Below are positions 31 through 26,570 of a stretch of DNA of 64,000 nucleotides, piece by piece (the stretch's first letter is position 1; every line of letters starts with the position of its first letter). The notes below the pieces were generated by a model. That model was not told where the DNA came from. It was given only the letters and a program-made list of their open reading frames with translations, and ran no database searches. This DNA is from Flaccisagitta enflata (lineage: Eukaryota). The stretch is taken from NCBI GenBank assembly GCA_965153355.1, contig OZ231126.1:30876001-30940000 (forward strand). Direction: 5' to 3'. Made by a program: the position numbers and the translations under genes.

Positions 31-761
31 TCATTTCCTTTTTTTCGACCACATGGAGCATTGTTCAACGGGGTTCATGGGAGACCCTCTAGGGCAATTA
101 AAGGCACGAGCAAAGTCAGGCTGCAAGGCGATGGTGCCAGAGACTCTCGGTTCCCCCGGCAAATGAGGGTCGGAGCTGAGTGTTTGTTCTAATTGGAAAG
201 ACGTAGTCTTATCACACCAGGCTTGGGCAAAAGCCACGTAAAAGAGTTGTTGAGAGGTGAAGCGTTCGAATCCCGGCAATGGCTCTTCTTTGCCAATGAT
301 CGAGGAGAAAGAGGAGGAAGAAGTAGTTTTGATTCGAGATCTTTCGTAGGCCAATTTGGCCAACTTGAGTCCGCCGGCGTCGGCGACGTTTTCACCCAAA
401 CTCAGTAGCGGGTTTACGGCTTTTCCGCCGGCCGTAAATTTTTGATAATGTTTGACGTAACATTGACTTTTTCGTTCGTAATGCATCGCGGACGTGTTGC
501 TCCACCAGTTGACCATGTTACCTTCGGCGTCGAATTGCATGCCCGACCGATCGAAGCCGTGGGTTATTTCGTGGCCGATAATGGCGCCGATCGCGCCGTA
601 GTTCATGTAAGACGGCGACTCGATGTCGAAGAGCGGCGTTTCGAAGACGCCGGCTGGGAACTCGATGCTGTTCTTGGCCAGGTCGTTGAAGGCGTTGACG
701 ACGGCCGCGTTGATGTTGTGCCACTCTTCACGCTCGGTCGTGTCGCCGAGGAAACGCGAGG
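31..761 (-). CDS. M13 peptidase exon 7 (catalytic domain, stop codon)
   Basis: attcAG acceptor at 762-763; VNAFN, EFPAG, HEITH (HExxH), ENVAD (third Zn ligand), DPH..R, C-terminal CSMW, TGA at 31-33. Joined CDS is 34+234+182+272+406+328+731=2187 nt. Confidence 0.97.
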
Positions 762-1454
762 CTGAATTAGAAATGGGGGGGGGGAGGAAGAAGATGTGGT
801 ATTATTGTAGGGAAAAAGAGGAGGTGGTGGAGAAATCGGTGGTGAAGGCAGATGAAGAGGCAGTGGAGGAAGAGGAAGAGGCAGTTACAATATTCGTAGG
901 GAGGCAGAAGGAAATGGCGGAGGTAGAGTGGAATTAGGAGAAGGAGAAGGAAAATGAGGTGGCAGTAAAGTTCAAGAAAGAAGGAGGGGGGGAATTTTGG
1001 GAGGAATATGGGATGGAACAAGAACTAGGGGTGGAAAACATCTAAAAAGAACTTTGTGACCGACCGACTGAACAACTGACGCGTTGGACGAACGGATCAA
1101 CCGACTAACTTAATGGATGGACGGACCGACCGAAAAGCGGCTTGCAGAAAGGAAGAGGGGAAAAAATTACTTCCAATCACATAAGAGTTTTGAACCGAAT
1201 AATTACTATTAGAGAAATTTCTGGATGAACTTTGGAGAAGTGACTTGTCGTTTTAAAGTATAATGATTGATGGAGAAAAATAACAGACAACGCCTGATTA
1301 CAGGCTTTTCTCATACCGCTCGCGCTGTATAGTGTATCCTCTGCACATGAAGCATTTCTAGTCGAGTCTTCGCGACTGTATAATCTATAAGCCGCTTTAC
1401 AGTTGATCAGTCCGTCCGTTCCTTGGTTACAAGCGTTTAATGCTTTTAATGCTT

Positions 1455-7382: not shown

Positions 7383-8568
7383 CTGTGGAAATACAGATGA
7401 AACAATAATCAAGAATAGCAGCCCAAAGGCAGTAAGTGGTCAGCGGTACCCGTGCCCTGCTTAAGTAGTATGTGATTTAGGTTGAGGGGGAGCAGGGCAG
7501 CGGCCCCGAAGGGGACAAAGTCCTGTAGAACACAGGGGGAATCTGTCCGTCCATCCATCCTTCTGTATGCCTTCCTTCTGTCCAAGATGCCCGGCTTTTC
7601 AAATTCTCATTGAATAACATGGAGAAATGACAAAAAGCAGTATATGGACAACAGTACCCGTGCCCTTCTTAGGAAGTTTGTAGGTTAAGTTGGGGGGGAG
7701 CAAGCCAGGATCTTAGTCTCCAAGGCCAGTATTTGGTCTCAGAGACTAATTTCTTGGTCTCAGAGGCCGGGAGTTGAGTCTCTGAGACAAGCCCGGGCGA
7801 TTCGTATTGGGTATTGTATCGGTTTTACAATACTGAAAGGTATTGGGTTTACCCAATACTACCAATCAATTTTGTAAAAAATACAATACAATACAATATG
7901 ATACAATACACTACAATTTTTTTAAAAATTTTTATGTTAGTATGGTATATGAACTCATGATAATAAAAGATGAAAAAAAGAGTATTTTTGATAAAAAAAA
8001 CTTATTAAATGCATGGTCATTTATATCAATATTTCAGTTTTAAAAAAAAAATTTCGGATTCCCTTTTGAAATATCAATCAGTCATGCATACATATCTTCA
8101 AAAAACATTGATAACCCTATATTGATATTTATTCAATTATCATACTAATTCTGAGAAAAAAAATGAAATATTGGTATTGGTATTGGTCAATATTTTGTCA
8201 AATCGCAAAACCCTAGAAAAAAAATTGTTGACTCTTTACGAACATTCAGTCAAACCCAACAAAACTAGAACCTGAAAACATTGAAAGAAGGATTTGATTT
8301 AAAACAAGGCTGTATACACTCCCCCTCAGTCGCGAAAGGATGGGCAGGAGCGGAATAGCAAAAAAAATGCTCATTCTCGATTCTAAATGTTATACATATT
8401 TTGTTTAGGTTACCGACAGACAGACCAACCGACCTACCGACACGGCAAGGTCTAGAGTCGCGAGTCCGCGACTACATATACCTTTTCCTTTCACAACCAG
8501 ACAGTTATCATCTGTCTCATATGGTCCAGTACTTATGCGAATTGATTTTCTCGGTTAGTAAAGAGGAA

Positions 8569-8690
8569 AAACAAGGCCAAGTAGGCCAATAAGGTGCGAC
8601 GTGTGGATCGTCGAACGAATGCGTTACCCGACCAACCGACCAACCAACAGACGGACACAGCCAGTTATAGAGGTGCTTTGTCGCACCTAA
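8569..8690 (-). mobile_element. HINE-like family D (second copy at about 51933-52067, +)
   Basis: AGGTGC-GACAAA-GCACCT palindrome, GGTY repeats, GGCC-TACTT-GGCC hairpin, TTGTT. Confidence 0.65.
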
Positions 8691-8746
8691 CAAGAGAGAT
8701 AGAGAAAGAGAGAAAACCATGTGACGCAAAAATGATAATCGGCGTG

Positions 8747-9485
8747 TGTCAGCGTTTGCCACGAGTCTCAGTTTCTCCAAGCAGCTGTGAGTCTTTAATA
8801 GAAGTGTTTTTCCAGAGTTCTGATGCGGAACCTTCTTTTGATCCAATCTAGAATGGAAGAGGCGCATTGAAGATTGTAGAGATCACAAAGTTCTGAATGG
8901 GAAAGAAAAAGGAGAAAGGAGAAGAGGGGGGGGCGCTAATTACGGCGGGCATTATGTTAAAAGGGGCCGGTCCATGTCAATATAAGAATGCCCTATACCT
9001 GAGGATCCGTAGAATGATGGTTTCTGGATGGGGGATGACGGAAGGGAGGATAATGCGCACAACATGGATTCAAGGAAAGTCAATTAGATATGAAAAGAGC
9101 TTGCTCGCTTATCTAGGGGAAAAAAGGAGAAATCATGATCTAAACACTGATATATACAGTAAAGGCAATGAGAGAAAAGGCACAGGAAAAATGAGTCCAC
9201 ATTTGAGTCTTGGGAAGATGGCTGAGTCCGGGGATGGATGATGGAGGAGGAGGATGAGGCCGGGGATCGAGCCAGAGGATGGCGGAGGAGGATGAGGAGG
9301 AGGATGAAGATGAGGACGGGGATTGGGCCGAGGAAGGAGGAAGAGGATGAGGACCGAGCTGGAGGAGGAGGAAGAGGACGGATGAGGAGGATGCGGCGAG
9401 GAGGAGGATGAGGAGGAGGATGATGAAGAATGGCGGAGGCGGACCTGGAGAGATATACACATGATACACGTGCTGTTTAGTGACA
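8747..9485 (-). repeat. 3' LTR (739 bp)
   Basis: Differs from the other LTR at about 2 substitutions and 1 homopolymer indel by eye; preceded on the minus strand by a short purine-rich run (AGCAGATGCAGGGGC, weak PPT). Confidence 0.93.
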
Positions 9486-11467
9486 GCCCCTGCATCTGCT
9501 AATAAGCAGATTACGTGATTTCTCGAAGGGGGGTTGTTAAGGGAAAAAATTTAGCGAGCAAGCCATGGACCGGGGGAGGGGGGGGAAGGAAGATCAGAGA
9601 AAAGACGATGTATGCATCTGGGATAAAATCCGCCGATTTTTTTCAAATGCGGTTTTTTGCATGAAAGTGAATGAGCAGCTAGTGCACTGCTATGGAAAGC
9701 TTCTAAGATGAGTGCAAACTACATAAGCCCCATCAAATCAAATTTTGATATAGCGTTAAAAAGGTGCCATCACTGATATCTTCCCCATGATTAGTAGCTT
9801 ATCCAATGATACAACTGTTGAATCATGTCCATCGTGTTTTCACAGTGACCTGGCTGTTCATGGGCAGAAAACAGAAATTTGGTCCCATCGAAAATGACCC
9901 ATCTGTTTGCTTTAAAAATTCCACATCAAAATTGGCGAAAAAGTGTTGGCGATTTTTCTTTTCTTTTCCTTGCTTTCTGTTGAAATCCATCCGTCCAGGC
10001 TCAGAAATATTAAAATCAAATTTCTTAGATTTTTTTAAGTAAAAAAAAAAAATATGTGACGTCGGAAACTTTTAACGCTGAAGTTTAAGACTGTGATCTA
10101 TCAGCATGTTATTGGCGTTATGGACAACATGTAACGAAAAAAGGCATATTAAGTAACGCAATAGAATAGATACACAAAAGCATAGACTATGTACAGAAGA
10201 ACAAACACAAAAAGTCTGGATGGTGAGGCAGGAATGCGAAGGAGGAGGAGGTGGCGAACATCGTTCCGCGAGGTCTTTTATAGAGTTCCACGGGGCGGAT
10301 GGCGCAGGGATGAGGAGGAGGGAGGAGGCGGCGAACATCGTTCCACGAGGCCTTGTTATAAAGTTCCACGGGGCGGATGGCGCGGACACGAGGATGGGAG
10401 GAGGATGGTAAATGGAGGCGAGGAACGGGGATGAGGAAGAGGACAAGGCTTTTCACCGCAGACCAGATTGGAGATGGATGACGAATCCGGAGCTGTAGTG
10501 TACGCCCGCGCACCTCGACAGTATAGGATGGAGGATGATTAGAGGTGTCCAGTGTGGAGGAATATAATGCCGGGGAATATATGTTACAAAACTGAGCACT
10601 ATGGGCGAGTCTTCCTTCCAGAGCGAAGCGAAGCAAAGCGATACATGTACGAGCAGAGGCGGATGAGGATGATGAGGATGAGGAGTTGGGGCTTTTCTTT
10701 CACCGTAATTGATGGCAGAAGGAAGGATGGTCGTGTGTCTTTGAGGATCGGGGAAGAAGTGAAGGACTTGGACAGGATGATGGAAGTCTCGGATAGGAAG
10801 ATGGGGACTTGAGTGGGAAGGCGACGGACTTGAGCTTTAAGGAACTGAAGACTTTTACGGGAGGATGGGCGATGTCGGGATGACGTGAGAGACGGATCTT
10901 TGAGGAATGGAGTTGACATGAGGGGAGGAGGGCGTTGACGGGATGATGGAAGAGGAGGAGGAGGTGGATGGCGAGGAGATAGCTTGGCTGGAGGGTGTTG
11001 ACGTTGGGGAGATGGATGCTTGGGGCCACCTACGACACTTTGGTCTGAAAGGTGTGCCCCTAGCTTATGATGGATGGTAGGGTCGGGCCGAATTCGCGGG
11101 GAGAGGGACGAGATGAAGAGGAGAGGAGGACGAGGATTTGACTACGATTCACCAAAGTAAGACGATAATTACGCCAATATTAGGCCACTGACAATATGCG
11201 TTGTGACGATGATAAATAAGGTATGTCAATGAGCAGGATGGGTGATAAAGTTGGAACCGGGATTGCGATGGGAATGGGTGAAGACACAAGAGAAAGGCAG
11301 GGCTGATGATAAGGGCGGGATGATAACTTTCGGTTTCTGCCACTAAGATCCCTGACTAGAAGATGAGGCGCCGGGAATATCTTGACGAGATAATTGGAAT
11401 GAGCTCATCTGCCGAAAGAAAAAGAGAGAGAGGGAGAGAGAGGGAGAGGAAGAGGGAGAGAGAGAGA

Positions 11468-11558
<91 letters not shown>

Positions 11559-11723
11559 AAAGATAGAGCGGAATAAAGGAGTAACAGAGGATTTTTCTTT
11601 TTCGAAGAAAGGGATGTAGATTAAACAACAGCGGAATGCGACATGGGTGAAATTGAGGACGATGGAAGAGACGTGATTACATGTGAATAGATGAAATGGC
11701 GAGGGGGCTGTGACGAGAAAGGG

Positions 11724-11899
<176 letters not shown>

Positions 11900-12188
11900 G
11901 AAAGAAAGATCAATGGGCCAGAAAGGTGAAGTTGAGATACAAATGGATAGTCCAGGGTTAAAGATGACATGTCGTTGTTGACGTCGAGGTACACCAGGAG
12001 GGGGGGGGGTTTGATGACTAGGATGAGGGTGATTGATAAATGGCGATGTCGAGATAGTCGATTTGAATTTAAGACGATTGGGCGTGGAATTGCAAACAAC
12101 GGCGGGGCTCAGGAGAGAGAGAGAGAGATGGAGAGAGAGGGAGAGAGAGAGAGAGGGAGAGGGGGAGAGAGAGAGAGAGAGGGAGAGG

Positions 12189-12234
<46 letters not shown>

Positions 12235-12295
12235 TAGAGAGAGCGAGCGAGGCAGAAAGAAGAGAAAAAGAAGAGAAAGAAGATGAGGATACAGA

Positions 12296-14874
12296 TTATA
12301 ATAATTCATTTTCCTCCTCAGTTTCAGACTCAGTACTGGTGTCGTCGTCGTTATCTCTTCCGTAGATTTTTTCGGCGAGATTGTGTTTGATTGTGGGAAT
12401 GTCCATTAATGCTTGCATTGGAGGGTCATTGATCCTGAGATGGGCATCTTTTGCATTTTGTCTTGATCTATCTGAGGGGTTGTTGGCGTTGAGGATATTT
12501 CTGCCGTGAAACATGGTGATGTGACCTTTTCTCGCACATATTGAGCAGGAGATTTCACTTTTCTCAGGACAATCCTTTGCATTATGTGTCATGTCCATAC
12601 AGTGGAAACACATACGGGCCTTGTTCGCGATGGCGATTCTTTCTGGAAGTGAAAGGATGAGGAGGCGATTACAGAGCGTCGTCTTATGGAGACCTTGGCA
12701 GTAAGCACATATCTCTGTTTTTTCTTCTTTTCTTGGGGATTCTCTCAATCCTTGAGTAAAAGTCATAGGGCCATACTGCTGGCTGTTGTTAGCGACTTCT
12801 CTGGCTTCTGTCACATGAATCTTGACGACTTGGGTTTCTTGTTCCGGCAGTTGGGTGTTTATGAGGAGTCTAATACGAGTGTGAACGAAGTCAAGCAGCT
12901 TTTGATAGCCATCTCCGTCCTCATAATCCTCAAAGAATTTCTCGATGTAGTATGGAATTCTCGCGGCCATAATCTCGAGTAGGCTTGTCCTTCTGTTGAG
13001 CAGCTCCATTGAACTGACTGCTACTGCTGAACTTTCCGCTTCCAGCATATTCATGTACAAATCTTGATATGCTGTAAGGCTGTCCTTTACCACAACGCCA
13101 CCTTCTTTTAACCTTGCTAGCGCTTCGGCTGCTGAATCCACGTCTTGGCTGTAGATTGAGTCCAAGTGCGTTCTGACTTTGGCGTAAGCCACATGACCTT
13201 ATGGGTCATTTGCTGTCGGTTTTGCTGCGTTGATGGCTTTCCTTGCTGCTCCGGCGAACCAATGGCCCGCCAACTCTGTCACTTTTTCGTTGCCAGAAAT
13301 CCCTTTGACGCACCCAAAGGCTGAATCGAATGAATTCATGAGCATGTTATACTGTCCTTTCTTTTTGGGGTCATATTTTTGGAATGGCTCTTTTGGGCGC
13401 ACTCCTACAACGTTTCTTCTCACGGCGTTGATCTCAAGAGAGTGGATAAGTTTTGAGAAGTCGGGCTGGAATGCCGCCGGGGGTGCTGAAATCCGCGCCG
13501 GAAGTGCTGGAATCGGCGCCGGGGGTGCTGCGGGGAATGCCTGATCTCCCACGGTGTTAGGAAGTTTTTTGTTTTGGGAGTGGCGTCTTTTCTGACCACT
13601 TCCGGTTGGAATGGCAGCGTTGTTGGCGTCGTTTTCTATGGATAGGATGGCGTCGTCGTCATCTTCATCCGCAGATTCGTTAGCTTCATTGATTTCACGC
13701 CGGATTTTTTCTATTTTATTTATCATCTCATGATTCTTTGCTTGAATTGTTTTCACATTTTCTTGTTCTTCTCTTCTTCTCTTCTTCTCTTTTTCTCGCG
13801 CTGTTTTTGTCGCTGCATCTCTTGGATCGCCTCTAAGCTTTTCAACTCTTCGCGAAGTCTTTTATTTTCTGCTTCCTCTTTCCGCAGGATGTCGCTGTCG
13901 TACTCATTGTCTTTTTCTATTGCGGCTGCGTGAGATTCACCCGTGTTTTTGATATTGTTGACAGCGTCGATGTGATTGGCGTCATAGTCAGGCTGTTGTT
14001 GTTGTTGGTGGCCGACCCATTCTGCCACTTTCTTTTCACCATCTTTGCGCTTTTCCATTTCGGCTTCGTCGTCTGTCTCTGCGTTTTTTTCTTTTGCGCC
14101 ATCTTTTCCATTGTCCACTTTTCTTGCGTCACTTTTGGTTGGCGCGTCGGCGTTGTCGTGAGTCTTTGTTGGTTGTTCACTCTCTTTTACATTGTTGTTT
14201 TTAGCCCCAGCAGTCTCTCCACGATTTCCTAGATTGGCTGCCGATGGCGGATTATTCTTGTTTTTTCCGGGTGACATGACGCTGGAAATAAGTCCTTTTG
14301 CCGAATCTGACGCGCGTTGTGACCTTCGCCGCAGTGCATTCGAGAACTCTGACTGTGACGGTGGTGCGGCGGCGAATAACGGGTCTCCTTGATTATGCTC
14401 TGATAGGATGGCTTGGCGGGTGATAATGAACTTTTTAGTTATGTTGCTAACGCGACTGCCCGCTGTTCGCCGGTGGCGCTTCTCCCTTGCCGATTCGCCG
14501 GGGAACCAGTGGGTCGTGACGGCCTTGTGATATTCCCAGATTTTGTCAATCAGTTCTGATCTCATATCGTCTATGTCGATGAAGGCGTCTTCCGCATCTG
14601 CGTCGTTGTTCCCTCCATAAGTTTTGAGGGCGTCGTCGTGTTTTAGGGCGAAGAATCGAGCCATTATTTTCAACATCTCTGCGGCTGCTTTGGCTTCTCG
14701 AGAATTCTCGTCGTTGTCCGTGAAGTCTGCTGTCAGGACGGAAGCCACCGATCCGGATGAGCCCAGAGCGCCGGCCTCCACTGCTTGGACCAACGCGTTG
14801 AAGTCGGAGAATTTCCGGATTTTCGCCTCAAACGTCGCCTTTTCTTGAGCGGCTTCTTCTGCTGTTTTTGCCAT
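12296..14874 (-). pseudogene. gag: BEL/Pao gag (about 856 aa when repaired), with one frameshift and one in-frame stop
   Basis: ORFs 13753-14874, 13199-13756 and 12296-13192 join. An extra copy of the 8-bp unit GAGAAGAA near 13765-13790 explains the shift; TAA 13199-13201 is in frame. DUF1759-like block (F..YD...Y..LMNSF...EKV..L...AGAARKAI...Y....HLDSIY) and three knuckles CX2CX3HX4C, CX2CX4HX4C, CX2CX4HX4H. Confidence 0.9.
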
Positions 14875-15026
14875 GATAATTTACGTATAAGATCGATGGG
14901 ATGATGGGGATGACGATTAGCAGGTAGTCCTGTAATGGGTGGTTGTCTTTTGGACTGATGATAGAAGTAAGGTGTTTTTTTTTACGGGTTTGACTTTATC
15001 TATTTAGCCGATTGCAGCTGCGTCGG

Positions 15027-15192
<166 letters not shown>

Positions 15193-15732
15193 GGGAGACA
15201 GAAAGAGAGACAGACAGAGAGACAGAAGATGATGACTTGATGTATCGTTGGAATTGGATTTGGTAATGTCTCTGATGCGCGGAGGAAAATAGCAGTAAGA
15301 GGCCGTCAGATTTATTTGTTTGGGAATTCGACTTTTCTTCAATCATGTTTTGAGAGAAAGAGAACGAGGAAGAAGATGCAAGATATGAAAACAGAAATGA
15401 TGAGAAGGCTGCAGGAATTGGAGGAGGAGGAACCGAGGGAGAAGAGGGGGAAGTGCCGCTGTGTGTGAAAAGCCAGCTGTTTACAATACTCATTAAGTAT
15501 CGGTCCCTATTCTTTGCGTGGAATTGGATGTTAATGGCTTGTTGTTGATGATAGGAGGGAAATCAAGCAGGTGGTATAGTCCTACTATATTTTTCCCGAG
15601 TTGATTAGATGTGAATGAAAGGGGTGAATGAAAGGGGTGATGAGAGGGGTGGTAAAGGATGATGATGATGGTGGTGATGGTGATAATGAAAAAAATAATC
15701 CGGTTGTAAGAAATGCTGTGCAAGGCGGGCGA

Positions 15733-15854
<122 letters not shown>

Positions 15855-18800
15855 GCCAGCGTTCTTGAGACTAGGATGCCTTCATCTCCGAGTGACTGGA
15901 TTTTAGGATGACGAGGCAGGTCAGGAATAACGGTGATGATTTTTGCGATCTTGGTGATAATGGCTGAGAGTGGATGATTGTCTTCCGGGCTGATGATCGT
16001 AGTAAGATAGATGATTTTGACGGATTTGATTTTTTGATGATAGAATGACGGCGATGGCTTTTTTAACTAGATACGGACAAAGAAGAACGAACAGGTATTC
16101 CAATTGTCTTTTTCGTCTTGGCGTTAATGTTAGGGGGTGCATGTAGTGGGAAGAGGTGTAAAAAAGATGATAATGTTTTCTTGTCAGTGATGAGAGGAGG
16201 GATTGTTTTGACGCTATTGATCTCGATAACGAGATGACAGATATTGTTGGAGGATTAACGGGTCACGTCACGTCAAATGTTCAAATGTTGCTTTTTCTTG
16301 GGCCAGCTCTGTCTCGGTTTTCGCCACACCCTGTTAATTCCATCTGGTAAAAGATTTGCGGCAAAGACACCTTTCAAAACCACTTCCCCGTGTTCAGTTA
16401 TTGCATGAAGACTAACGATAAAATAGGGGCAAAAAAATTCCCTTACAAACTTTTCCTCCAACGCCCCATTTGTCATGGGTTGTAAGTACAGGCCACATGA
16501 AGCAATTTCCATAAGATAAGGTAACTTCTTAAGCTTATATCTCCTGAACGAATTGAGCAAATTACCTCAACTTGGGCTCATTTTAAAGAGCAAACAAAAC
16601 TCTTTAAAATGAGCCCAAGTTCAGATCATTTGCTCAATTCATCTAGGAGCAAGAGTCTTCCAAAGTTGATGTAATATTCAGAAAAATGGCAAAGACACAT
16701 ACTACTTTGAGAGTAGGCATCTCTTCAACATAATGAGCAAATGAACTCAACTTGGGCTCATTATAAAGAACAGACAGAGCTCTTTAAATTGTAAAATAAG
16801 TTAAGGTCATTTGCTCAATTCATTATTTTCAGAAAAATGGCTAAGACCATAACAACTTAAAGAGCTTGCATCTCTTAAACAAACAGAGCTTAAGACCTCA
16901 ACATGGGCTCATTTTAAAGAACAGACAGTGCTCTTAAAAATTAGCTCAAATTGAGGACATATGCTCAATTCATTTAGGAGCAACTGTCTTTCAATGTTTG
17001 TTATTTTCAGAAAATGCTAAGTTGCGTGCTGGTGGGCGGCAGCAGTAATGCAATAACCACCCATAAACGCCAAAAAGAAACAAAAAAAGTATAGCTTGAC
17101 CAATCGATGGATGGATAGATAGACAGATGGATGTATGGATGGACAAAGCAGGTTGGTTAGTCACGTGGACGCAATCAAAAAAATTTTGAAAGATTTTTAT
17201 GTGCGCCAACGCACATCAAAAAGAGACTTTGTCACTTGATCGGTTAGTTGGTTAGTCGTGATGGAAAGTTGATAGATGGGCAAATTTGCGAATTGCACCA
17301 ACTAGCCACTCATTGATGAGGCTGACAAAGCCTGATATGAGGTTATAAATGAATAATATGAGGTCTTAAACGCCTGATAAGAAGTTTGGGAGGCTTTTTT
17401 TAATTGTGGACAGGCAACCTTATGATCTTAAGGCTTTGTCTGTCAGTCTGTTGGTCCGTTGGTGTGGGGTCATCAAGTTGAAAAGTGGGATAACAAGTGT
17501 TTTAGATACAATTTGTGTATGTTTGTGTGTGTGGGATAGGGTTTGGGGTGTGGATGGGGGGTGTGGATGCCGCTGCCCACCTGTCCGCAACAAGATTATA
17601 ATCCCGCGTCACTTGTTTTAGTCCAAAAGACTGGCTTCTGGGTCTGAGAGGCTTGATTTTGGGTCTTGGAGGTCTGATTTGCAGTGTGAAAGGCCTGATT
17701 TGGGATCTGAAGGTCAAGATCTGTTGTCTGAGAGGCTAGATTTGAGGTCTTAGAGCTCTGATTTTAGGTAAGAAGGTCATGGAGGACCAGTTTGAAGCTG
17801 GGGGGGGGTATGTACAGAAAACCCATGAAATTAGGTGGAATCATCCTCGAGTTTCATCCTCTTCAACGTCACTGCCATCATGCTTTTTGGGCAGCGGCCC
17901 CAAAGGGCCAATGTCCTGTAGAACACAGGTGGGGAATTTTGAGACGTCCTTCCGTCCACCCCCCCCATGACCATCAAGGCCTCAAATTAGCCCTCCCAGG
18001 CCTTAGCCCTCTAGGCTTCAAATCAGCCCTCTTGCCTTGAAATTAGCCTCCCCCATGCCTCAAATCTGCCCTCCAGACCTCAAATCTGCCCTCCAGACCT
18101 TCAATCAGCCCTCCATGCATCAAATTCACCCCTGTGTTTTACAGGACATCAGCCTTTTAGGGCCACTGCCCTGCTCTTACTCCACTGGATCACTCCCAGC
18201 AGGGCATCGGGTACCGCTGACCATGTGCGATCCTTGGATGATTAGTTCCTTTCCATTTCTGTATTATGCGGCAGACTAAGTGATAAGCTTTTAGGGCAGT
18301 GACCCCAAAGGGCCGATGTCCTGTAGGACATGGGTGAATTTCCCGATGTCCATCCATCTGTCCGTACATACATCCCCCTTCTAAGACCCATATTAACCCT
18401 CTGAGACCCTATAATAGCCCTCTCAGGCTTACAATCAGTCCTCTCAGGCCCAAAACTCAGCTTTCTCAGGCCTAAAATCAGCCATCTCAGGTCCAAAATT
18501 AGCTCTCACAAGCCAAAAATCAGTCCTTTCAAACTTAAAATCTGACCACTTAGGTCTCAATCCAGCCCTCAAAGTAACCATCTCAGGTCTATATCTGCCC
18601 TCATCCCTGATCTCATTTGAGCCCGTAAACCCCCTAAATCAGCCCCTACATGCCTCATTACTGTGCTCCAATCAAACATTCAGCTTTTAAACGTGCTTTC
18701 TCAGGACTATAGAAATTCACCCCTGTGTCCTACAGGACATTAGCCCTTTGGGGCTGCTACCCTGCTCTCACTTCACTTCTTCAGCAAATCACTCCGAGCA

Positions 18801-18952
18801 GGGCATGGGGCACCGCTGACCATGTGTGAACCTTGGATGACTATCTTAGAATTGGTTCCTTCTCAGTGAGAGGTTAAACAAATGGTAATGGCAGCAGTCC
18901 TGAAGGGGCCAATGACCTATTGTTCCACACATTTTTTCTGGTTTTCTGTATA

Positions 18953-19307
18953 CAGTTAAACCCTGCTCTAACGGATTTCAAGGGACTAACATATTTTATA
19001 TATTTTAGATAGAATTTTGTTGGAGCTAATATAGAAAATTAGAGAAAACAAGTTGAAGGGTCTGTGAATTTGTATCCATCATAGGCGGAATTCGGTTGGC
19101 ACAGTTAAACCCCGCTATAACGGATCCAAGAGTAATAAAAATCCGCCTTTAAAAGATTTTAAAAATTTAGTCCCTAATGTCAATTTCTTTTCATTTATAT
19201 ATTGTAATAAAGGAAATCCGGCTTTAGTGAATAAAATTTGTTGGTCCCTTGACATCCGTTATTACAGGATTTAACTGTAGTGGGTCCGTTAGATCGGGCT
19301 TCAACTG
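18953..19307. mobile_element. Tc1/mariner (pogo/Tigger-like) MITE containing a related MITE at 19102-19277
   Basis: TIR CAGTT(A/G)AACCC.GCT.TAACGGA, TA flanks; relatives at 50111-50287 and 61369-61545. Confidence 0.8.
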
Positions 19308-19680
19308 TATACCCCCAGCCTCAATCCAGGCCTCTCAGACCCCAAATCAGGCCCCTCAAACCACAAACCTGGCCCCTTGATTTCCAAATCAGGCCTTTCT
19401 CACCGCAAATCAGACTTCAGGACCCCAAATCAAGCTAAAAATCAGGTCTTTTGGACTAAACAAGGCCGGATACGCAGATACCCTAGTCGCGTGCATGTGG
19501 GATGGGGCAGTGATGAAGGTCACTGGGGCATTTGGGCAGGAGCAGTGAGCTTAAAATACCCAAAAACGCCAAAAAAGTAACAAGTCAGCAGTAACCAATG
19601 CCCTGCTCACTGCTTGGAGTGATCAGCTGATGAAGTGAAGTGAGAGCAGGGCAGCGGCCCCAAAGAGCTGATGTCCTGTA

Positions 19681-20119
19681 CAGTACCATAGGAGCAATGA
19701 GAACCTCAGATGGAGGGTCATTTCCTGCTTCACTATTCTAATGAAGTAGCTTCAATTATGGTTTTTCTGAAAGCTGATGAGCAAGAGCTTTGAGTGAATA
19801 TAGTTTTATTCCTCTAGCTCTAACTGTTGACCAAAAAGAAAAAAAGTGCAGCACCACTCGGGATTTGAACCTGTGACACTGAAGAGGGAGAAATTATCTT
19901 TCTCAAGTTCATCACTCTATCAATAGAGCTATCACGCCACATGCAATTTGAAGACATCAATTGGCGGTTTTGTTATGAATCACTTGGTTTGGAATTTTGT
20001 GTTCACTCAATACCTTGGACCATCAGCTTTCAGAAAAACCAAAGCTTTAGGTTCTTCCTTTAAACAGTGAGAATATAGAGGGCCCTCTTTCTACTGCTCT
20101 TATTGCTCCCATCGTACTG
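19681..20119. mobile_element. Tc1/mariner-type MITE carrying a tRNA-like segment
   Basis: TIR CAGTAC.AT.GGAGCAAT.AGA; TA TSD; removal restores the family B motif GTCCTGTAGGACA. Confidence 0.78.
19850..19937 (-). other. Degenerate tRNA-derived (SINE-head-like) sequence
   Basis: A-box-like TAGCTCTATTGATAGAG and B-box GGTTCAAATCC; no intact cloverleaf. Confidence 0.5.
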
Positions 20120-20407
20120 TAGGACATAGGTGAATTTCCTCACGTCCATCCATCCTGAGAGATCAGATCTTAGGCTTGCGAGGGCAAATTTGAGGCCTCA
20201 TAGGACATAATTCAGGCCAGAGAGGGCTGAATACAGGCCTGGGAGGGCTTACATAGAGTCTGGGAGGGCTAATTTGGGGCTAAAGAGGGTTGATTTTGGG
20301 TGTAAGAAGGCTGGTTTTAGATCTGAGAGAGCCAATTTTGGACCCAAGAGAGGTGATTTTAAATATGAGAGGGTTGATATGAGTCTCTTAGGACTGATTT
20401 CAGACCT

Positions 20408-21120
20408 GAACAGGTCGCCCAAGGGCAATATGTGGTCAGCAATACCCGTTGCCCTGCTTTGAGTGATTGTGAATTTGAGTGAGGGGAAGCAAGGCAGCGG
20501 CCCCGAAGGAGATGAAGTCTTGTAGAACACAGGGGAACTTTCGTTCATCCTGCCTGAAGAAGTGGATGAGATGCTATAGAGGGCTGACTGAAGGCCTTCA
20601 AAAGCCTGAGAATGCTAATCTAAAGCTTCGGAGGGCCGACTTGAGGCTGAAGAGAGCTAGATTTAGGCTTGAAAGGTCGGAGGATTGATTTGAAGCCTGA
20701 GAGCAATAAATTGAGGCTTAGATGGCTAATTTGAGGCCTTAAAGGCCTAGTTTGAGGCCTGAGAGGCCAGGTTTGAGGCCTGAGAATTTGGATTTGAGGC
20801 CTGAGAAGCCTAATTTGAGGCCTGAGAAGCCTAATTTGAGGCCTGAGAGGCCAAGTTTGAGGCCTGAGAGATTGGATTTGAGGCCTGGGAGGCAGGATTT
20901 GAGGCCTGAGAGGCTGGATTTGAGGCCTAAGAGGCTGGATTTGAGGCCTGATAGGCTGAATTTGAGGCCTGAGAGGCCAGATTTTAGGTCACAGAGGCCA
21001 GATTTTAGGTCACCAAGGCCAGATTTCAGGCCCTATGAGGGGGGGACGAATGGACAAACGAACGAACGGACGAACAAAAGTCCCCCTGTGTTCTACAGGA
21101 CTTCCTCCCCTTAGGGGCCC
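20408..21120 (-). mobile_element. HINE-like family B with 21-bp tandem array
   Basis: Inverted GCAGCGGCCCC/GTAGAACACAGGGG blocks around (TTTGAGGCCTGAGAGGCTGGA)n. Confidence 0.7.
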
Positions 21121-22527
21121 AGAAAGCCAGATTTGGGCTGGAAAGGCATCAGGGGGGGGGGCGTACATAGGGATGGACAGACAGACAGACTGAAAATAAA
21201 AGCTTCCATGATTTTGAGCATCATTGCATATTTCTGAAAATAACATCAACTTTAAAAGATGGTTGCTCCTAAACAAATAGAGCAAATTATCTCAATTTGA
21301 ACTCATTTTAATGCCCAAGTTGAGGTCTTTAGCTCTATTTGTTTGAGAGATACACGCTCTTTAAGTTGTACTTGAGCTCGTTTTCTAAAGCTTTGTCAGC
21401 TCTTTAAAAGAAGCCCAAGTTTAGATCATTTGCTCAATTTGTCTCAGAGATACAAACTCTCAAACTGTAGCAAGGGTTTTTGCCATTTTTCTGAAAATAA
21501 CATCAACTTTGGAAGACTGTTGCTCCTAAACGAATGGAGCAAATGACCTCAATTTGGGCTCATTTTAAAGAGCAGACAAACTTCTTTAAAATGAGCCCAA
21601 ATTGAGGTCATTTGCTCATTTCGTTTAGGAGATAAAGGCTTTAGAAGTTACCTTATCTAGTGGAAATTGCATTATGTGGCCTGTACTTACAACCTATGAC
21701 AAAAGGGGTTTTGGAAGAAAAGTTTGTAAGCGAATTTTTTTGCCCGTATTTTATCGGAAATCTCCACGCAGTTACTGAGCATGGGGAAGTGGTTGTGAAA
21801 GGTGTCTTTGCCGTAAATCTTTTACCAGATGGATTAACAGGGTGGCCATGGTGATTGATGTGGTATGCGGACAAGGATGGTGAGAATGATGAATAGCGGG
21901 TATTCCCACTGTCGATGACGGTAGGGTGAATGTGAATGTGAATGTGAATGTTTTTTCTTCTGAGGGTAGGGGGATGATTTTTGGATTCTTTAGATGATGA
22001 GTATGAGGATTAGCGGGTATTCCCACTGTTGGTGATAACGGGCTGATTTGGTGATGTAGGGGGTGAATGTTTCTGGCTGGGGGTCGGGGGATGATATTTG
22101 GAGTAGACTGAGTTTGTTGGATTTTGTCTTTGGATGAATTGGGCGCGATGAACAACCGGTAGTCCTATTGTTTCCACGACCAGGAGGATGGCTGAAGACG
22201 TTTTTGTTGGCTGTTTGTTGCTTTTGTTTTTGAGGAAGCTGTAGATGTGCGAGCAGGAAGGGATAATGATGAGGATGGGAAGTTGGGCTTTTCTTTCACC
22301 GTAAGTTGACGGAAGGAGGAGGGATGGTCGGGAGGATGAGGATGAGGATGATGAGGATGGGAGGTTGAAGTTTTCTTTCACCGTAATTGATGGCGGAAGA
22401 AGGGATGGTTGTGCGACTTTGAGGGTTGAAGAAGAGGTGAGCGACTTTGGCGGGAAGATGGAGGTCTCGGATGGGAAGTCGGGAACTTGGATGGGAAGGC
22501 GGTAGACTTGAGCTTTAGGGAACTGAG

Positions 22528-22539
22528 GAACTTTGTGAT
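22528..22539 (-). promoter_or_regulatory. Atypical primer-binding site, complementary to LTR 22675-22686
   Basis: Minus strand ATCACAAAGTTC directly follows the LTR end TGACA; no TGG; perfect 12-bp inverted match inside the LTR. Confidence 0.65.
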
Positions 22540-23277
22540 TGTCAGCGTTTGCCACGAGTCTCAGTTTCTCCAAGCAGCTGTGAGTCTTTAATAGAAGTGT
22601 TTTTCCAGAGTTCTGATGCGGAACCTTCTTTTGATCCAATCTAGAATGGAAGAGGCGCATTGAAGATTGTAGAGATCACAAAGTTCTGAATGGGAAGGAA
22701 AAAGGAGAAAGGAGAAGAGGGGGGGCGCTAATTACGGCGGGCATTATGTTAAAAGGGGCCGGTCCATGTCAATATAAGAATGCCCTATACCTGAGGATCC
22801 GTAGAATGATGGTTTCTGGATGGGGGATGACGGAAGGGAGGATAATGCGCACAACATGGATTCAAGGAAAGTCAATTAGATATGAAAAGAGCTTGCTCGC
22901 TTATCTAGGGGAAAAAAGGAGAAATCATGATCTAAACACTGATATATACAGTAAAGGCAATGAGAGAAAAGGCACAGGAAAAATGAGTCCACATTTGAGT
23001 CTTTGGAAGATGGCTGAGTCCGGGGATGGATGATGGAGGAGGAGGATGAGGCCGGGGATCGAGCCAGAGGATGGCGGAGGAGGATGAGGAGGAGGATGAA
23101 GATGAGGACGGGGATTGGGCCGAGGAAGGAGGAAGAGGATGAGGACCGAGCTGGAGGAGGAGGAAGAGGACGGATGAGGAGGATGCGGCGAGGAGGAGGA
23201 TGAGGAGGAGGATGATGAAGAATGGCGGAGGCGGACCTGGAGAGATATACACATGATACACGTGCTGTTTAGTGACA
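22540..23277 (-). repeat. 5' LTR (738 bp)
   Basis: TG...CA termini; upstream of gag on the minus strand; ATTAAA polyA-like signal at 22587-22592. Confidence 0.93.
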
Positions 23278-23339
23278 GCGTGATAAGTTTGAGGTGAATA
23301 GATAAATCCAGGATTTAAAATCGTTAAAAGTGAAGTTTT

Positions 23340-23357
23340 AGGGAAAATATTTGCAAC

Positions 23358-23389
<32 letters not shown>

Positions 23390-23417
23390 TTGTTGTTGCT
23401 GTTGCTGTTGCTGTTGC

Positions 23418-23469
<52 letters not shown>

Positions 23470-23515
23470 GGTTAGTAGTGAAGTTTATGGCAAAAGTTTT
23501 GCCATGCTTCTGTTT

Positions 23516-23578
<63 letters not shown>

Positions 23579-23618
23579 GTTAGCAGTGAAGTTTATGGCG
23601 AAAGTTTTGCCGTGCTTC

Positions 23619-23670
<52 letters not shown>
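23340..23670. repeat. (TTG)n microsatellite with a duplicated ~40-bp spacer
   Basis: GTTAG.AGTGAAGTTTATGGC.AAAGTTTTGCC.TGCTTCTG at about 23470 and 23579 between TTG runs. Confidence 0.85.
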
Positions 23671-23675
<5 letters not shown>

Positions 23676-23713
23676 CTTGAAAGGTAGTTGCGGGAGAAGT
23701 AGTGTCGATCATA

Positions 23714-23753
<40 letters not shown>

Positions 23754-23817
23754 GTTACATTGCACGAAGTAAACAATGACATAGTCGAAACCATGTCATT
23801 GTTTTTTTCGTGCAAAG

Positions 23818-23892
<75 letters not shown>

Positions 23893-25109
23893 CGAGAGAC
23901 AGACAGACAGACAGACAGAGTACGGACTACAAATCCAACTTGGTTTCCATGTTGACAACGAGTTGAAGTTGGCGCCTGGTGTTCTTGAGTTTTTTAGACA
24001 CATGGTTGTCTACTTAGACTTTCATCATCCTGTAAAAGTGCATGGTTATCTTCTAGTCAACATTTTCACACGATTCCGAATTCTACGCAAAGAAATGACA
24101 AAATTTTCCAGATGGATTTTAGTTGCGTGCACGTGACTCTACAACCCACTTTGTCCGTCGGTCGGTCGGTCGGTTGGTTGGTCATTCTTCTTGAATTGCG
24201 AAATACAAAGAGAGCAATTAGGTTTTTTTCAGCAACGAGAAAGAATATGGAAAGTGCCTCATTTGCCAAACTCGCATAAAAACAACCAACTACTCGACAA
24301 CGAACTTAATTACTTATCTCAAACAATTTTCAGCTCATCGAATTGAGAATCTTTTTTGAATTTGCATATCCCAAACATAACACAACAATGTGTTTTGCAG
24401 AATCAAATGATCATGTATGAATTAAATCTAACTGATTCACGAGCACTTAGCACATTTTTCATTGAAATTTTACTATATATTAAATGATGAACGTTTTATT
24501 GCATTGATTGGGTAGTGGGTATCGGGTATTGATGGGGTATTGTACCCCAATACTTAAGAATATAGTATTGTATCGTATAGTATTGGAATCGCCCCAATAA
24601 TTAGCTAGATTGTATAGTAAATCGTATAGTTAAGAATAAGTCAGAATCGCCCGGGCTTGCTCTGAGAGCAGGATTTGGGTCTCTGAGGCCAGGATTTATG
24701 TGTTTGAGGCTAGAACCTGGGTTTCAGAGGCCAGAATCTGGGTCCCAGAGGTCAAGATTTGGGTCTCTTTAGAAGGCTAGGATGTGGGGTTTAAAGGCCA
24801 GAATCTAGGTATCAGAAGCCAGAATCTAGGTCTAAGGGGCCAAAATGGTAGAACTCAGACCAGAATTCAGGTTTTCTAGCCAGATTTAGACCATTTTGCT
24901 TGGATTTGGGCCATACAGTTTGGATTGGGGCCCCAAAGAAGACGAAGCCCTAAGGGTGGGGCAGGGGGGGGACGGACGGATGGATGGACGTACGTACGGA
25001 CAGACAGATTCCCCCTGTGTTCTACAGGACTTCATCCCCTTCGGAGCCGCTGCCCAAAAGTCAACCCCCCTGAAAATGAAACTCATTTCATTCTAATGGC
25101 AGCAATATC

Positions 25110-26570
25110 TGCATTTGCGGATACATGGCTACCCTAGTCGCGTGCGGGTGGGCAGGAGCAGTGCTGGAGAAGGTCACTAAGGCATCTGGGCAGGAGCCGT
25201 ATGCTCAACTAGTCATCCAAGGATCGCACATGGTCAGCGGTACCCGATGCCCTGCTTGGAGTGATCAAGTGAAGTAGTGGACTGAGAGCAGGGCAGCAGC
25301 CCCAAAGGGCCGATGTCCTGTAGGACACAGGGGGTAATTTCTAGACGTCCTGAGGGGCAATATATAAGGCCTAAGAGGGATTTGAGGTTTAGGGGGAAGA
25401 TTTTGGGCCTGAAGATTAGATATGAGATCCGGGGGTAGGCTTGAGGCATTAGGGGTAGATTGGAGGCCTGGAGGGCTGATTTGAGGCCTGGAATGCTGAT
25501 TTTAGGGCTGGAGAGCAGATTTGAGGCCTGGAGAGCTGATTTGAGAGCTGATTTGAAGCCTGGAGAGCTGATTTGAGGTCTGGAGGGCTGATTTGAGGCC
25601 TGGAGGGCTCATTTGAGGGCTCAGAGGGCCTAAATCAGGCCTGAGAGTGAGGATTTTAGGCCTCAATGGCCAACCGGGGGGGGGGGACGGACGGACGTTA
25701 GGAAATTACCCCCTGTGTCCTACAGGACATCGGCCCTTTGGGGCCGCTGCCCAAAAAGCTCAAAACCGCCGAAAAAGTAACAGGTCGCCCAAGGGCAATA
25801 CGTGGTCAGCGATACCCGTTGCCCTGCTTTGCTTGGTTGTAAATCGAAATGAGAGGCAGGGCAGCGGCCCCGAAGGGAACGAAGTCCTGTAGAACACAGG
25901 GGACTTTCGTTCATTCGTCCATCTGTCCGTCCGCCCCCCCAGGCCCTCTCAGGCCTGAAATCTCAGGCCTAAAATCTGCCATCTCAGGCCTGAAATCTGC
26001 CCTCTCAGGCCTGAAATCTGAGAAGGCAGATTTCAGGCCTGAGAGGGCAGATTTTAGGCCTGAGAGGGCAGATCTTAGGCCTGAGAGAGCAGGTTTTAGG
26101 TCTGAGAGGGCAGGTTTCAGGCCTGGAAAGACAAATTTCAGGCCTGAGAGGGCAGATTCAAGGCCTGAGAGGGCAGATTCAAGGCCTGAGAGGGCAGATT
26201 CAAGGCCTGAGAGGGCAGATTTTAGGCTTGATAGGGCAGATTTTTGGCCTGAGAGGGCAGGTTTCAGGCCTGAGAGGGCAGATTCAAGGCCTGAGAGGGC
26301 AGATTCAAGGCCTGAGAGGGCAGATTCAAGGCCTGAGAGGGCAGATTTCAGGCCTGAGAAGGCAGATTTTAGGCCTGAGAGGGCAGATTTCAGGCCTGAG
26401 AGGGCCTGGGGGGGACGAACGAACGGACGGACAAATGAACGAAAGTCCCCTGTGTTCTACAGGACTTCGTCCCCTTCGGGGCCACTGCCCAAAAAGGGGA
26501 CCAAGCGACCAACGGACCGACCAACGGACCGACATAGCGGGGTGTATAGTCGCGTAGCACGCGACTAAAA
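25110..26570 (-). mobile_element. Family A HINE interrupted by two family B HINEs (about 25207-25756 and 25779-26494)
   Basis: Removing both inserts restores GCTCAAAAAGC.CAAAA.CGCCGAAAAAGTAAAAAGGGGA, as in the intact copy near 5340-5400; inserts sit in A/T runs without TSD. Confidence 0.78.

What the first reader, a model, noticed from the sequence alone, without database searches (positions are those of the whole stretch)
22521..22690. Candidate self-priming (tRNA-independent, Tf1-like) reverse transcription signal in a BEL/Pao-type LTR element
Seen: on the element (minus) strand the 5' LTR ends ...TGACA and is followed with no spacer by ATCACAAAGTTC (22539-22528). There is no TGG to pair with a tRNA CCA end. 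The exact complement, GAACTTTGTGAT, lies inside both LTRs (22686-22675; 8893-8882). It follows a pyrimidine tract and an initiator-like TTCA, and sits about 85 nt upstream of an ATTAAA, which is where a transcription start would be expected. If the RNA starts there, its first 12-13 nt fold onto the PBS; cleavage after ...GUGAU gives a primer whose extension starts exactly with TGTCA. A second pairing abuts the PBS: U5 AACUGAG (22566-22560) with leader CUCAGUU (22527-22521), extendable by GCUU/AAGC in the same register. Established: S. pombe Tf1 and related Ty3/gypsy chromoviruses prime from the first ~11 nt of their own mRNA, helped by a U5-leader stem; BEL/Pao elements are generally described as tRNA-primed. 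Inference: a BEL/Pao lineage that self-primes. I do not know of a described case but cannot search.
Basis: partly seen in the sequence, partly recalled or inferred. Interest (0 to 1): 0.9.

Follow-up and report, generated by a model that had tools for sequence, protein, structure and literature searches.

The report
Possible self-priming signal in BEL/Pao-like retrotransposon
A young gag-only retrotransposon of the BEL/Pao kind lacks the usual tRNA docking site and instead has, right after its first repeat, 12 bases that pair perfectly with a stretch inside that repeat, so it may start copying itself from its own RNA, but the predicted RNA start was not confirmed.

Summary
A 14.5-kb LTR element lies on the minus strand. 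Its LTRs are 738/739 bp and 99.6% identical, with TG..CA ends and a 5-bp target duplication (CACGC).

The 12 nt that abut the 5' LTR (22539-22528) are the exact complement of 22686-22675 inside the LTR. A match this long occurred in 1 of 20,000 shuffles. The first 200 nt of leader contain no TGG.

The interior holds only a broken gag. Profile searches place that gag with BEL/Pao Gag (DUF1759 plus CCHC knuckles).

Self-priming is the best reading (about 0.55) and meets the published in-silico criterion. Three things stay untested: the RNA start, the cleavage, and covariation. I found no related DNA loci.

The "pyrimidine tract + TTCAG" looks like a splice acceptor, and one metatranscriptome contig joins 22791 to 22685, removing a 105-nt GT..AG intron. 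A PBS variant (30% of depth in one DNA run) has no visible compensating change.

The library searches returned no paper that reports self-priming for BEL/Pao. Verdict: a new variant of a known kind, of moderate interest.

The parts
22540..23277 (-). 5' LTR (738 bp), TGTCA...TGACA
   Evidence: Alignments of the two repeats and blastn at 99.6% identity.
8747..9485 (-). 3' LTR (739 bp)
   Evidence: It differs from the 5' LTR by 2 substitutions and 1 indel in a C run.
23278..23282 (-). Target-site duplication CACGC, upstream copy
   Evidence: Read directly.
8742..8746 (-). Target-site duplication CACGC, downstream copy
   Evidence: Read directly.
22528..22539 (-). Primer-binding-site position: ATCACAAAGTTC, abutting the LTR with no spacer
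   Evidence: There is no TGG in the first 200 nt of leader.
22675..22686 (-). Candidate self-primer GAACTTTGTGAT in the 5' LTR, the exact complement of the PBS
   Evidence: A match this long arose in 1 of 20,000 shuffles.
8882..8893 (-). The same 12-mer in the 3' LTR
22587..22592 (-). ATTAAA, the only poly(A)-signal hexamer in the LTR. It lies 83 nt after the 12-mer ends and so marks the likely end of R.
   Evidence: Motif scan. The function is inferred.
22560..22566 (-). U5 arm AACTGAG of a 7-bp stem
   Evidence: Pair probability is 0.7-1.0 for six of the seven pairs (0.38 for the outermost) in folds of 248 and 348 nt. Shuffle p is about 0.024.
22521..22527 (-). Leader arm CTCAGTT of the same stem, directly 3' of the PBS
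22686..22790 (-). Candidate 105-nt GT..AG intron inside the LTR. Its acceptor AG ends at the first base of the 12-mer.
   Evidence: One contig of RNA run X18 joins 22791 to 22685 (depth 3.02, 72 nt on the shorter side) and the joint is absent from DNA run X1 (table 5). The pyrimidine tract and GT/AG were read.
12296..14874 (-). gag-like reading frame in three pieces. There is a frame change within 13861-13753 and an in-frame stop at 13201-13199. It has CCHC knuckles. No pol follows.
   Evidence: ORF lists. Intact relatives are 640-792 aa. The N-terminal piece is 66% identical to P0011. BEL/Pao affinity rests.
9486..9499 (-). Purine-rich stretch GCAGATGCAGGGGC abutting the 3' LTR (weak polypurine tract)
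   Evidence: Read directly. The function is inferred.

Best explanation
This is a recently inserted, gag-only (non-autonomous) LTR retrotransposon whose Gag is of the BEL/Pao type. It most likely starts minus-strand DNA synthesis from its own RNA rather than from a tRNA.

The proposed mechanism runs as follows. The LTR-encoded segment GAACUUUGUGAU (22686-22675) folds back onto the 12-nt site that abuts the 5' LTR (22539-22528). An RNase H supplied in trans by an autonomous partner cuts after ...GUGAU. The new 3'-OH is extended, and the first base copied is A22540, so the DNA end falls exactly at the LTR boundary. A 7-bp U5/leader stem next to the PBS could stack on this duplex.

Shown here: the complementarity, its exact position, its improbability by chance, the lack of a tRNA-type PBS, and the Gag affinity.

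Inferred: the pairing in vivo, the cut, the partner, and where the RNA starts. The primer segment may be internal to the RNA rather than its first bases, because the motif in front of it looks like a splice acceptor.
For: - The 12/12 complement starts at offset 0 from the LTR end. A match this long arose once in 20,000 dinucleotide-preserving shuffles, even when offsets of 0-5 were allowed.
- The LTR boundaries are fixed independently by TG..CA termini and the CACGC duplication, so "offset 0" is not a matter of choice.
- There is no TGG in 200 nt of leader. The window has no tRNA gene. No Rfam match fell on the LTR/PBS region among the 29 matches with E <= 1, all of which scored below their gathering thresholds.
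- The 12-mer lies upstream of the only poly(A) hexamer in the LTR. It would therefore be in R, and about 100 nt of R would remain for strand transfer.
- The finding meets the published in-silico criterion for self-primers: at least 10 bp complementary to the 5' LTR, starting 0-5 bp after it (PMC6317226, methods passage).
- The duplex energy is -14.7 kcal/mol, and it forms in the minimum-free-energy fold of the 188-201-nt RNA.
- The LTRs are 99.6% identical. In DNA run X1, 838 contigs were laid on the stretch at 90-100% likeness. The family is therefore multi-copy and was recently active.
Against: - No RNA 5' end was mapped. All four runs laid were contigs, and they cover both sides of 22686.
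- The tract plus TTCAG in front of the 12-mer behaves as a splice acceptor in one RNA contig and resembles a host acceptor. The Tf1-style "first bases of the RNA" is therefore doubtful.
- In folds of 248 and 348 nt the 12-mer:PBS pairing has probability about 0, while the U5/leader stem, which crosses it as a pseudoknot, has probability 0.7-1.0 for six of its seven pairs. The fold z-score is -0.37.
- A PBS variant (22536 T>A on the plus strand) holds 9,379 of 31,110 depth in X1, and it is in the only X16 RNA contig that covers the site. No compensating change at 22678 is listed. However, 7 rows of that table are hidden, and the X1 summary counts one A>T place that no row shows.
- This is a single locus with no pol, so the RNase H that would have to cut is unknown.
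- I found no related DNA loci in which to test covariation.
Confidence: 0.55

Rival explanations
1. The 12-bp pairing is a regulatory RNA structure rather than a primer. In the 5' copy the leader site pairs with, and masks, the splice acceptor that overlaps the 12-mer. This keeps full-length RNA unspliced. Priming would then use some other, unseen primer.
For: The candidate acceptor AG ends at the first base of the 12-mer, and one RNA contig shows the 105-nt GT..AG segment removed. A host acceptor has the same look. Only the 5' copy has the complementary site downstream.
Against: A masking site could lie anywhere nearby, yet this one starts at the very first base after the LTR, which is what a primer site requires. 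The rival leaves the element without any recognisable primer site, since there is no TGG in 200 nt. The intron rests on one contig of depth 3. It has a 4-nt microhomology at the joint, so it could instead be a deletion variant.
Confidence: 0.15
2. The site binds a host RNA fragment, for instance a 5' tRNA half. The 12-mer has the shape of a 5-nt anticodon stem strand plus a 7-nt loop UUGUGAU with a His-type GUG anticodon. This would resemble the half-tRNA priming known for some Ty1/copia lineages.
For: Half-molecule tRNA primers (1/2 tRNA-Met, 1/2 tRNA-Ile) are described for copia lineages (PMC6317226 passages). That the 12-mer fits the general anticodon-arm pattern is my own reading, not a tool result.
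Against: This rival does not explain why the same 12-mer sits in both LTRs, which happens by chance about once in 20,000. In the LTR, the bases after the 12-mer do not complete an anticodon stem. There is no tRNA in the window and no tRNA-like Rfam match. I could not search the host tRNA set because no genome is held.
Confidence: 0.1
3. Chance, or a relic with no present function.
For: This copy is defective: its gag is broken and it has no pol. Folding statistics are unremarkable.
Against: The match arose in 1 of 20,000 shuffles. The LTRs are 99.6% identical and have an intact target duplication, so this copy was reverse-transcribed recently using whatever primer site it carries.
Confidence: 0.03

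Closest known systems
Tf1/Tf2 of Schizosaccharomyces pombe and the Tf1/sushi and Tcn1 groups (Ty3/gypsy chromoviruses)
   Same: There is no tRNA PBS. A short site next to the 5' LTR is complementary to a stretch of the element's own LTR-derived RNA. In Tf1 the first 11 bases pair with the PBS and RNase H cuts between bases 11 and 12 (PMC7175516 passages; PMC6317226 passages).
   Different: The Gag here is BEL/Pao-type, not Ty3/gypsy. The duplex is 12 bp. The primer segment is not shown to be the RNA's 5' end and may lie behind an intron. The flanking stem pairs U5 with leader 3' of the PBS and so crosses the primer duplex. The element has no RT/RNase H of its own.
TAR lineage of plant Ty1/copia (Houba, Osr-1), self-priming predicted in silico
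   Same: The prediction rests on the same kind of evidence: LTR complementarity starting 0-5 bp after the 5' LTR (PMC6317226 passages).
   Different: It belongs to a different superfamily and kingdom. As here, there is no biochemical proof. I could not see the supplementary tables of that paper.
BEL/Pao elements (Belpaoviridae, genus Semotivirus)
   Same: The Gag domain has DUF1759-like and CCHC parts. The element has LTRs with TG..CA ends and a short target duplication. The host is probably an animal: the window carries a Peptidase_M13 exon.
   Different: The family is described as primed by host tRNA, with an 18-nt PBS to tRNA-Arg or tRNA-Gly (PMC8742986, whole text). This element has no such site and no pol.
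TR-GAG elements of plants (terminal repeats plus gag only)
   Same: The architecture is LTR-gag-LTR, and intact relatives encode only a Gag-like protein of 640-792 aa.
   Different: The term is used for plants: all 10 titles listed are plant papers, and I saw the search listing only. This element is in an animal-like genome and is of BEL/Pao descent.
Retroviral U5-leader stem flanking the PBS (recalled from memory, not checked in any call)
   Same: A short stem between U5 and the leader brackets the primer site.
   Different: Here the stem is only 7 bp, marginal against shuffles, and shows no covariation data.

Membership tests
Self-primed (Tf1-type) LTR retrotransposons | A site at the 5' LTR/leader junction complementary (at least 10-11 nt) to sequence of the 5' LTR | tested here: met
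   The match is 12/12 at offset 0. It arose in 1 of 20,000 shuffles. The criterion is from PMC6317226.
Self-primed (Tf1-type) LTR retrotransposons | No tRNA-type PBS | tested here: met
   There is no TGG in 200 nt of leader. The host tRNA set could not be searched.
Self-primed (Tf1-type) LTR retrotransposons | The complementary segment is the first bases of the transcript | tested here: inconclusive
   Only contigs were available, so no RNA ends could be seen. One RNA contig splices onto 22685, which argues that RNA upstream of the 12-mer exists, but it could derive from the 3' LTR.
Self-primed (Tf1-type) LTR retrotransposons | RNase H cut at the 3' end of the primer segment | not testable with these tools
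   This needs cDNA intermediates or biochemistry.
Self-primed (Tf1-type) LTR retrotransposons | The pairing is conserved or covaries among relatives | tested here: inconclusive
   No related loci were found. A PBS variant at 30% of depth has no listed partner change, but 7 table rows are hidden.
Tf1/sushi clade of Ty3/gypsy | Phylogenetic membership (gypsy-type proteins) | tested here: not met
   Of 6 long relatives of the Gag profile that I scanned, 4 carry Peptidase_A17 and 4 carry DUF1759; 5 carry at least one BEL/Pao family. None showed a gypsy-specific family.
BEL/Pao (Belpaoviridae) | Gag with a DUF1759-type domain and CCHC knuckles | tested here: met
   Direct Pfam scans of the window ORFs gave nothing significant, and scans of the 9 relatives gave only weak zf-CCHC in 5 of 9. 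The profile search reaches BEL/Pao polyproteins. hhalign gives 98.3% over the DUF1759 plus knuckle region of P0156. The top Atlas cluster is DUF1759 at score 0.93, which is a lead only.
BEL/Pao (Belpaoviridae) | Pol with Pao-type protease, RT, RNase H and integrase | tested here: not met
   There is no pol-sized frame in the element. Relatives found by word search are Gag-only proteins of 640-792 aa.
BEL/Pao (Belpaoviridae) | tRNA-complementary PBS (tRNA-Arg or tRNA-Gly) | tested here: not met
   There is no TGG. The defining text is in PMC8742986.
Non-autonomous gag-only LTR elements (TR-GAG-like) | LTRs, target duplication and gag, but no pol | tested here: met

The most novel reading that the evidence does not exclude
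A BEL/Pao-derived lineage has replaced tRNA priming with priming from an internal segment of its own RNA. That segment sits exactly on a splice acceptor inside the LTR. The same 12-bp duplex would then both hide the acceptor, keeping the genomic RNA unspliced, and supply the primer. This would tie the choice between message and genome to the start of reverse transcription.
Probability: 0.12. Interest if true: 0.75.

Novelty: new variant of a known kind. Interest (0 to 1): 0.5.

Why it matters
Self-priming is proven for Tf1. It is predicted for its Ty3/gypsy relatives and for one Ty1/copia lineage. BEL/Pao is the third LTR superfamily and is formally described as tRNA-primed.

A BEL/Pao self-primer would mean one of two things: this way of starting reverse transcription arose several times, or it is older than the split of the superfamilies. 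The latter idea has been raised in print (PMC3601003 passage).

There is also a practical point. Annotation pipelines that demand a tRNA PBS would miss or misplace such families. This family appears abundant in marine plankton sequence data.

Tried and rejected
**Whole genome.** None is held. I therefore could not collect family copies, the tRNA set, or a partner element.

**Earlier findings of this scan.** There was nothing by place, sequence or words.

**Related DNA.**
- The Gag alignment in metagenome contigs gave 70 pattern matches and 0 relatives.
- The leader pattern gave 0 in metagenome contigs and 0 in genome contigs.
- The LTR-end/PBS pattern gave 0 in viral contigs.
- The Gag alignment in viral contigs gave 1 weak zinc-knuckle hit, L001, which I did not use.
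- The Gag alignment in genome contigs gave 90 pattern matches and 0 relatives.

**Sequencing runs.** 24 were listed, and the best holder has 0.44 of the sampled words. I laid 4 of the 24: X16, X17 and X18 (RNA) and X1 (DNA). All are short contigs, so they show no RNA starts, ends or strands. Parts without cover say nothing. Two X16 contigs begin at 22688 and one X17 contig begins at 22692. These are different places within one study, so they do not hint at a start.

**Leader copy.** I tested the diverged leader copy at 10855-10636 as a second LTR/PBS junction. No complement of 7 nt or more lies upstream of it, so I dropped it.

**Promoter motifs.** There is no TATA box near -30 of 22687. TATATA lies at 22948 and TATA at 22776. 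These do not decide where the RNA starts.

**Papers.** Searches failed: the papers of Lin and Levin and the Tf1/Tf2 review are not held. One search failed on a term format, and I re-sent it. In de la Chaux and Wagner (PMC3118150) the words PBS, "primer binding", tRNA and self-prim do not occur.

Full report
**Anatomy.** Two direct repeats on the minus strand bound a 14.5-kb LTR element.
- The repeats are 23277-22540 and 9485-8747, 738 and 739 bp long. They differ by 2 substitutions and 1 indel, which is 99.6% identity.
- They begin TGTCA and end TGACA, and CACGC flanks the element on both sides. The boundaries are therefore fixed independently of the finding.
- A weak purine-rich stretch abuts the 3' LTR.
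- The interior holds only a Gag-like frame, 14874-12296. It is in three pieces, with a frame change within 13861-13753 and an in-frame stop at 13201-13199.
- There is no pol-sized frame.
- Between the leader and gag lie simple repeats and repeats shared with the flanks. These include an inverted pair, 16327-17025 and 21844-21218, so other elements have probably inserted there.

**The observation.**
- The 12 nt after the 5' LTR (ATCACAAAGTTC, 22539-22528) are the exact complement of GAACTTTGTGAT at 22686-22675, and of the same 12-mer at 8893-8882 in the other LTR.
- Allowing the leader word to start 0-5 nt after the LTR, a complement of 12 nt or more arose in 1 of 20,000 dinucleotide-preserving shuffles of the LTR. 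One of 10 nt or more arose in 0.1%.
- No TGG occurs in the first 200 nt of leader. ARAGORN finds no tRNA in the window.
- An Rfam scan of 8000-24000 gave 29 matches with E <= 1. All score below their gathering thresholds, and none lies on the LTR/PBS region.
- ATTAAA at 22592-22587 is the only poly(A) hexamer in the LTR. The 12-mer therefore lies where R is expected.
- The second pairing, 22566-22560 with 22527-22521, is present. A stem this long so close to the PBS arose in 2.4% of shuffles. That is suggestive, no more.

**What kind of element.**
- Direct Pfam scans of the window's frames gave nothing significant. Scans of 9 close relatives gave only weak zinc knuckles, in 5 of 9.
- Word-based searches found 9 relatives of similar length and 7 longer ones. 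Six of the longer ones, 640-792 aa, align over most of the query. None has a recorded Pfam domain.
- A profile of 14 relatives, searched against 1.84 billion representatives, gave 4,602 hits at E <= 0.001.
- I scanned 6 of the longest listed hits. Peptidase_A17 (the Pao protease) is in 4 and DUF1759 is in 4; 5 carry at least one of these families, 2 also carry DUF5641, and 1 has none.
- hhalign places the conserved domain and the knuckle array of the profile on residues 341-617 of one such polyprotein, with 98.3% probability. This overlaps that protein's DUF1759 match.
- The Atlas feature search put DUF1759 clusters first (0.93, 166 shared features), mixed with Ty3-type Gag clusters. That is a lead only.
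- The Gag is therefore of BEL/Pao descent. The element itself is a gag-only derivative that must borrow RT, RNase H and integrase.

**How it most likely works.**
- The junction site has no tRNA character and is perfectly complementary to LTR RNA. The simplest mechanism is therefore self-priming of the Tf1 kind.
- Here, a cut after U22675 would leave a 3'-OH opposite A22539. The first base copied would be A22540, the last base of the LTR. That explains why the site abuts the LTR with no spacer.
- About 100 nt of R, from 22674 to the poly(A) site, would remain for the first strand transfer.
- The finding meets the criterion used for in-silico prediction of self-primers in plants: at least 10 bp, 0-5 bp after the LTR (PMC6317226 passage).
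- The pairing in vivo, the cut, and the enzyme are inferred.

**Evidence against, and the new point about the RNA start.**
- I laid contigs of three metatranscriptome runs and one DNA run on 22000-23400. They cannot show RNA ends.
- They do show one RNA contig (X18, depth 3.02, 72 nt on the shorter side) that joins 22791 to 22685. The skipped 105 nt begin GT and end AG on the element strand, and the AG follows a pyrimidine tract of about 35 nt.
- DNA run X1 lacks this joint. The two other joints that X1 shares with an RNA run (22027/22221 and 22072/22182) are not GT..AG on the element strand and look like copy variants.
- A host exon in the same window (Peptidase_M13) is preceded by a similar tract ending TTCAG.
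- The 12-mer survives splicing, because the upstream exon also ends TCAG.
- There are caveats. This is one low-depth contig. The 4-nt microhomology would also fit a deletion. The contig could derive from the 3' LTR.
- The primer segment may thus be internal to the RNA. This does not hinder the mechanism, but it departs from Tf1.
- Folding does not favour the duplex in longer RNAs. Its probability is about 0.3-0.4 in 187-188 nt and about 0 in 247-348 nt. The U5/leader stem, which crosses it as a pseudoknot and so cannot be scored together with it, dominates those longer folds. The fold z-score is -0.37.
- A PBS variant (22536 T>A on the plus strand) holds 9,379 of 31,110 depth in X1, and it is in the only X16 contig over the site. 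That contig diverges upstream of 22588, so it comes from another subfamily whose 12-mer I cannot see.
- No change at 22678 is listed. However, 7 rows are hidden, and the X1 summary counts one A>T place that no row shows. I cannot tell either way.

**Comparison and novelty.**
- Self-priming is established for Tf1/Tf2. It is predicted for Tf1/sushi and Tcn1 elements and for the TAR lineage of Ty1/copia.
- BEL/Pao is described as tRNA-primed (PMC8742986, whole text).
- 9 papers hold "self-priming", Pao, BEL and retrotransposon together. I read passages of 4 of them (PMC6317226, PMC3601003, PMC5443660, PMC5445492), and none attributes self-priming to BEL/Pao. The other 5 I know by title only.
- The pair self-prim plus Belpaoviridae returns only the plant survey.
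- The BEL/Pao survey PMC3118150 does not mention PBS or tRNA at all.
- The original Tf1 papers were not available. What I say of the retroviral U5-leader stem is recalled.
- Within these limits, a BEL/Pao-type self-primer is not in print.
- I rate it a new variant of a known kind. Interest is moderate, because the evidence is one locus and a sequence argument.

Noticed in passing
window 22686-22790 (minus strand): A candidate 105-nt GT..AG intron lies inside the LTR. It has a long pyrimidine tract, and its removal is seen in one metatranscriptome contig (X18) but not in DNA run X1. An intron within an LTR is unusual in itself.
   Followed up: partly
window 10636-10855 (minus strand): A copy of the 5' leader (22534-22236), about 80% identical, sits between gag and the 3' LTR. 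It is not preceded by an LTR, and its start has no upstream complement. Its origin is unexplained.
   Followed up: partly
window 16327-17025 and 21218-21844: An inverted repeat pair (75% identity over about 700 bp) brackets about 4 kb inside the element, so it is probably a nested insertion. Palindromic hairpins at 16541-16667 and 21505-21649 give microRNA-family matches far below gathering scores.
   Followed up: no
window 20134-21073 and 25934-26416: The same 21-bp tandem repeat family occurs inside the element and in the flank outside it.
   Followed up: no
window 22936-23028: All three RNA runs (X16, X17, X18) hold contigs that join 22935 to 23029, and DNA run X1 does not. The ends are not GT..AG, and other letters may lie between them. 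The expressed subfamily probably differs from this copy there.
   Followed up: no
window 31-801 (minus strand): An exon encodes the C-terminal Peptidase_M13 (neprilysin-like) domain, E = 1e-58. It is preceded by a pyrimidine tract and TTCAG. This points to an animal host. The runs that hold the LTR are labelled marine metagenomes.
   Followed up: partly
window 23702-23877: A long hairpin-forming purine/pyrimidine repeat lies just upstream of the 5' LTR. It gives microRNA-family matches on both strands, all below gathering scores, so it is probably a simple palindromic repeat.
   Followed up: no
window 22688 (minus strand): Two different RNA contigs of run X16 begin exactly at 22688, one base before the predicted start. 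This could be a graph branch between spliced and unspliced forms, or it could be a true RNA end. Contigs cannot tell.
   Followed up: no
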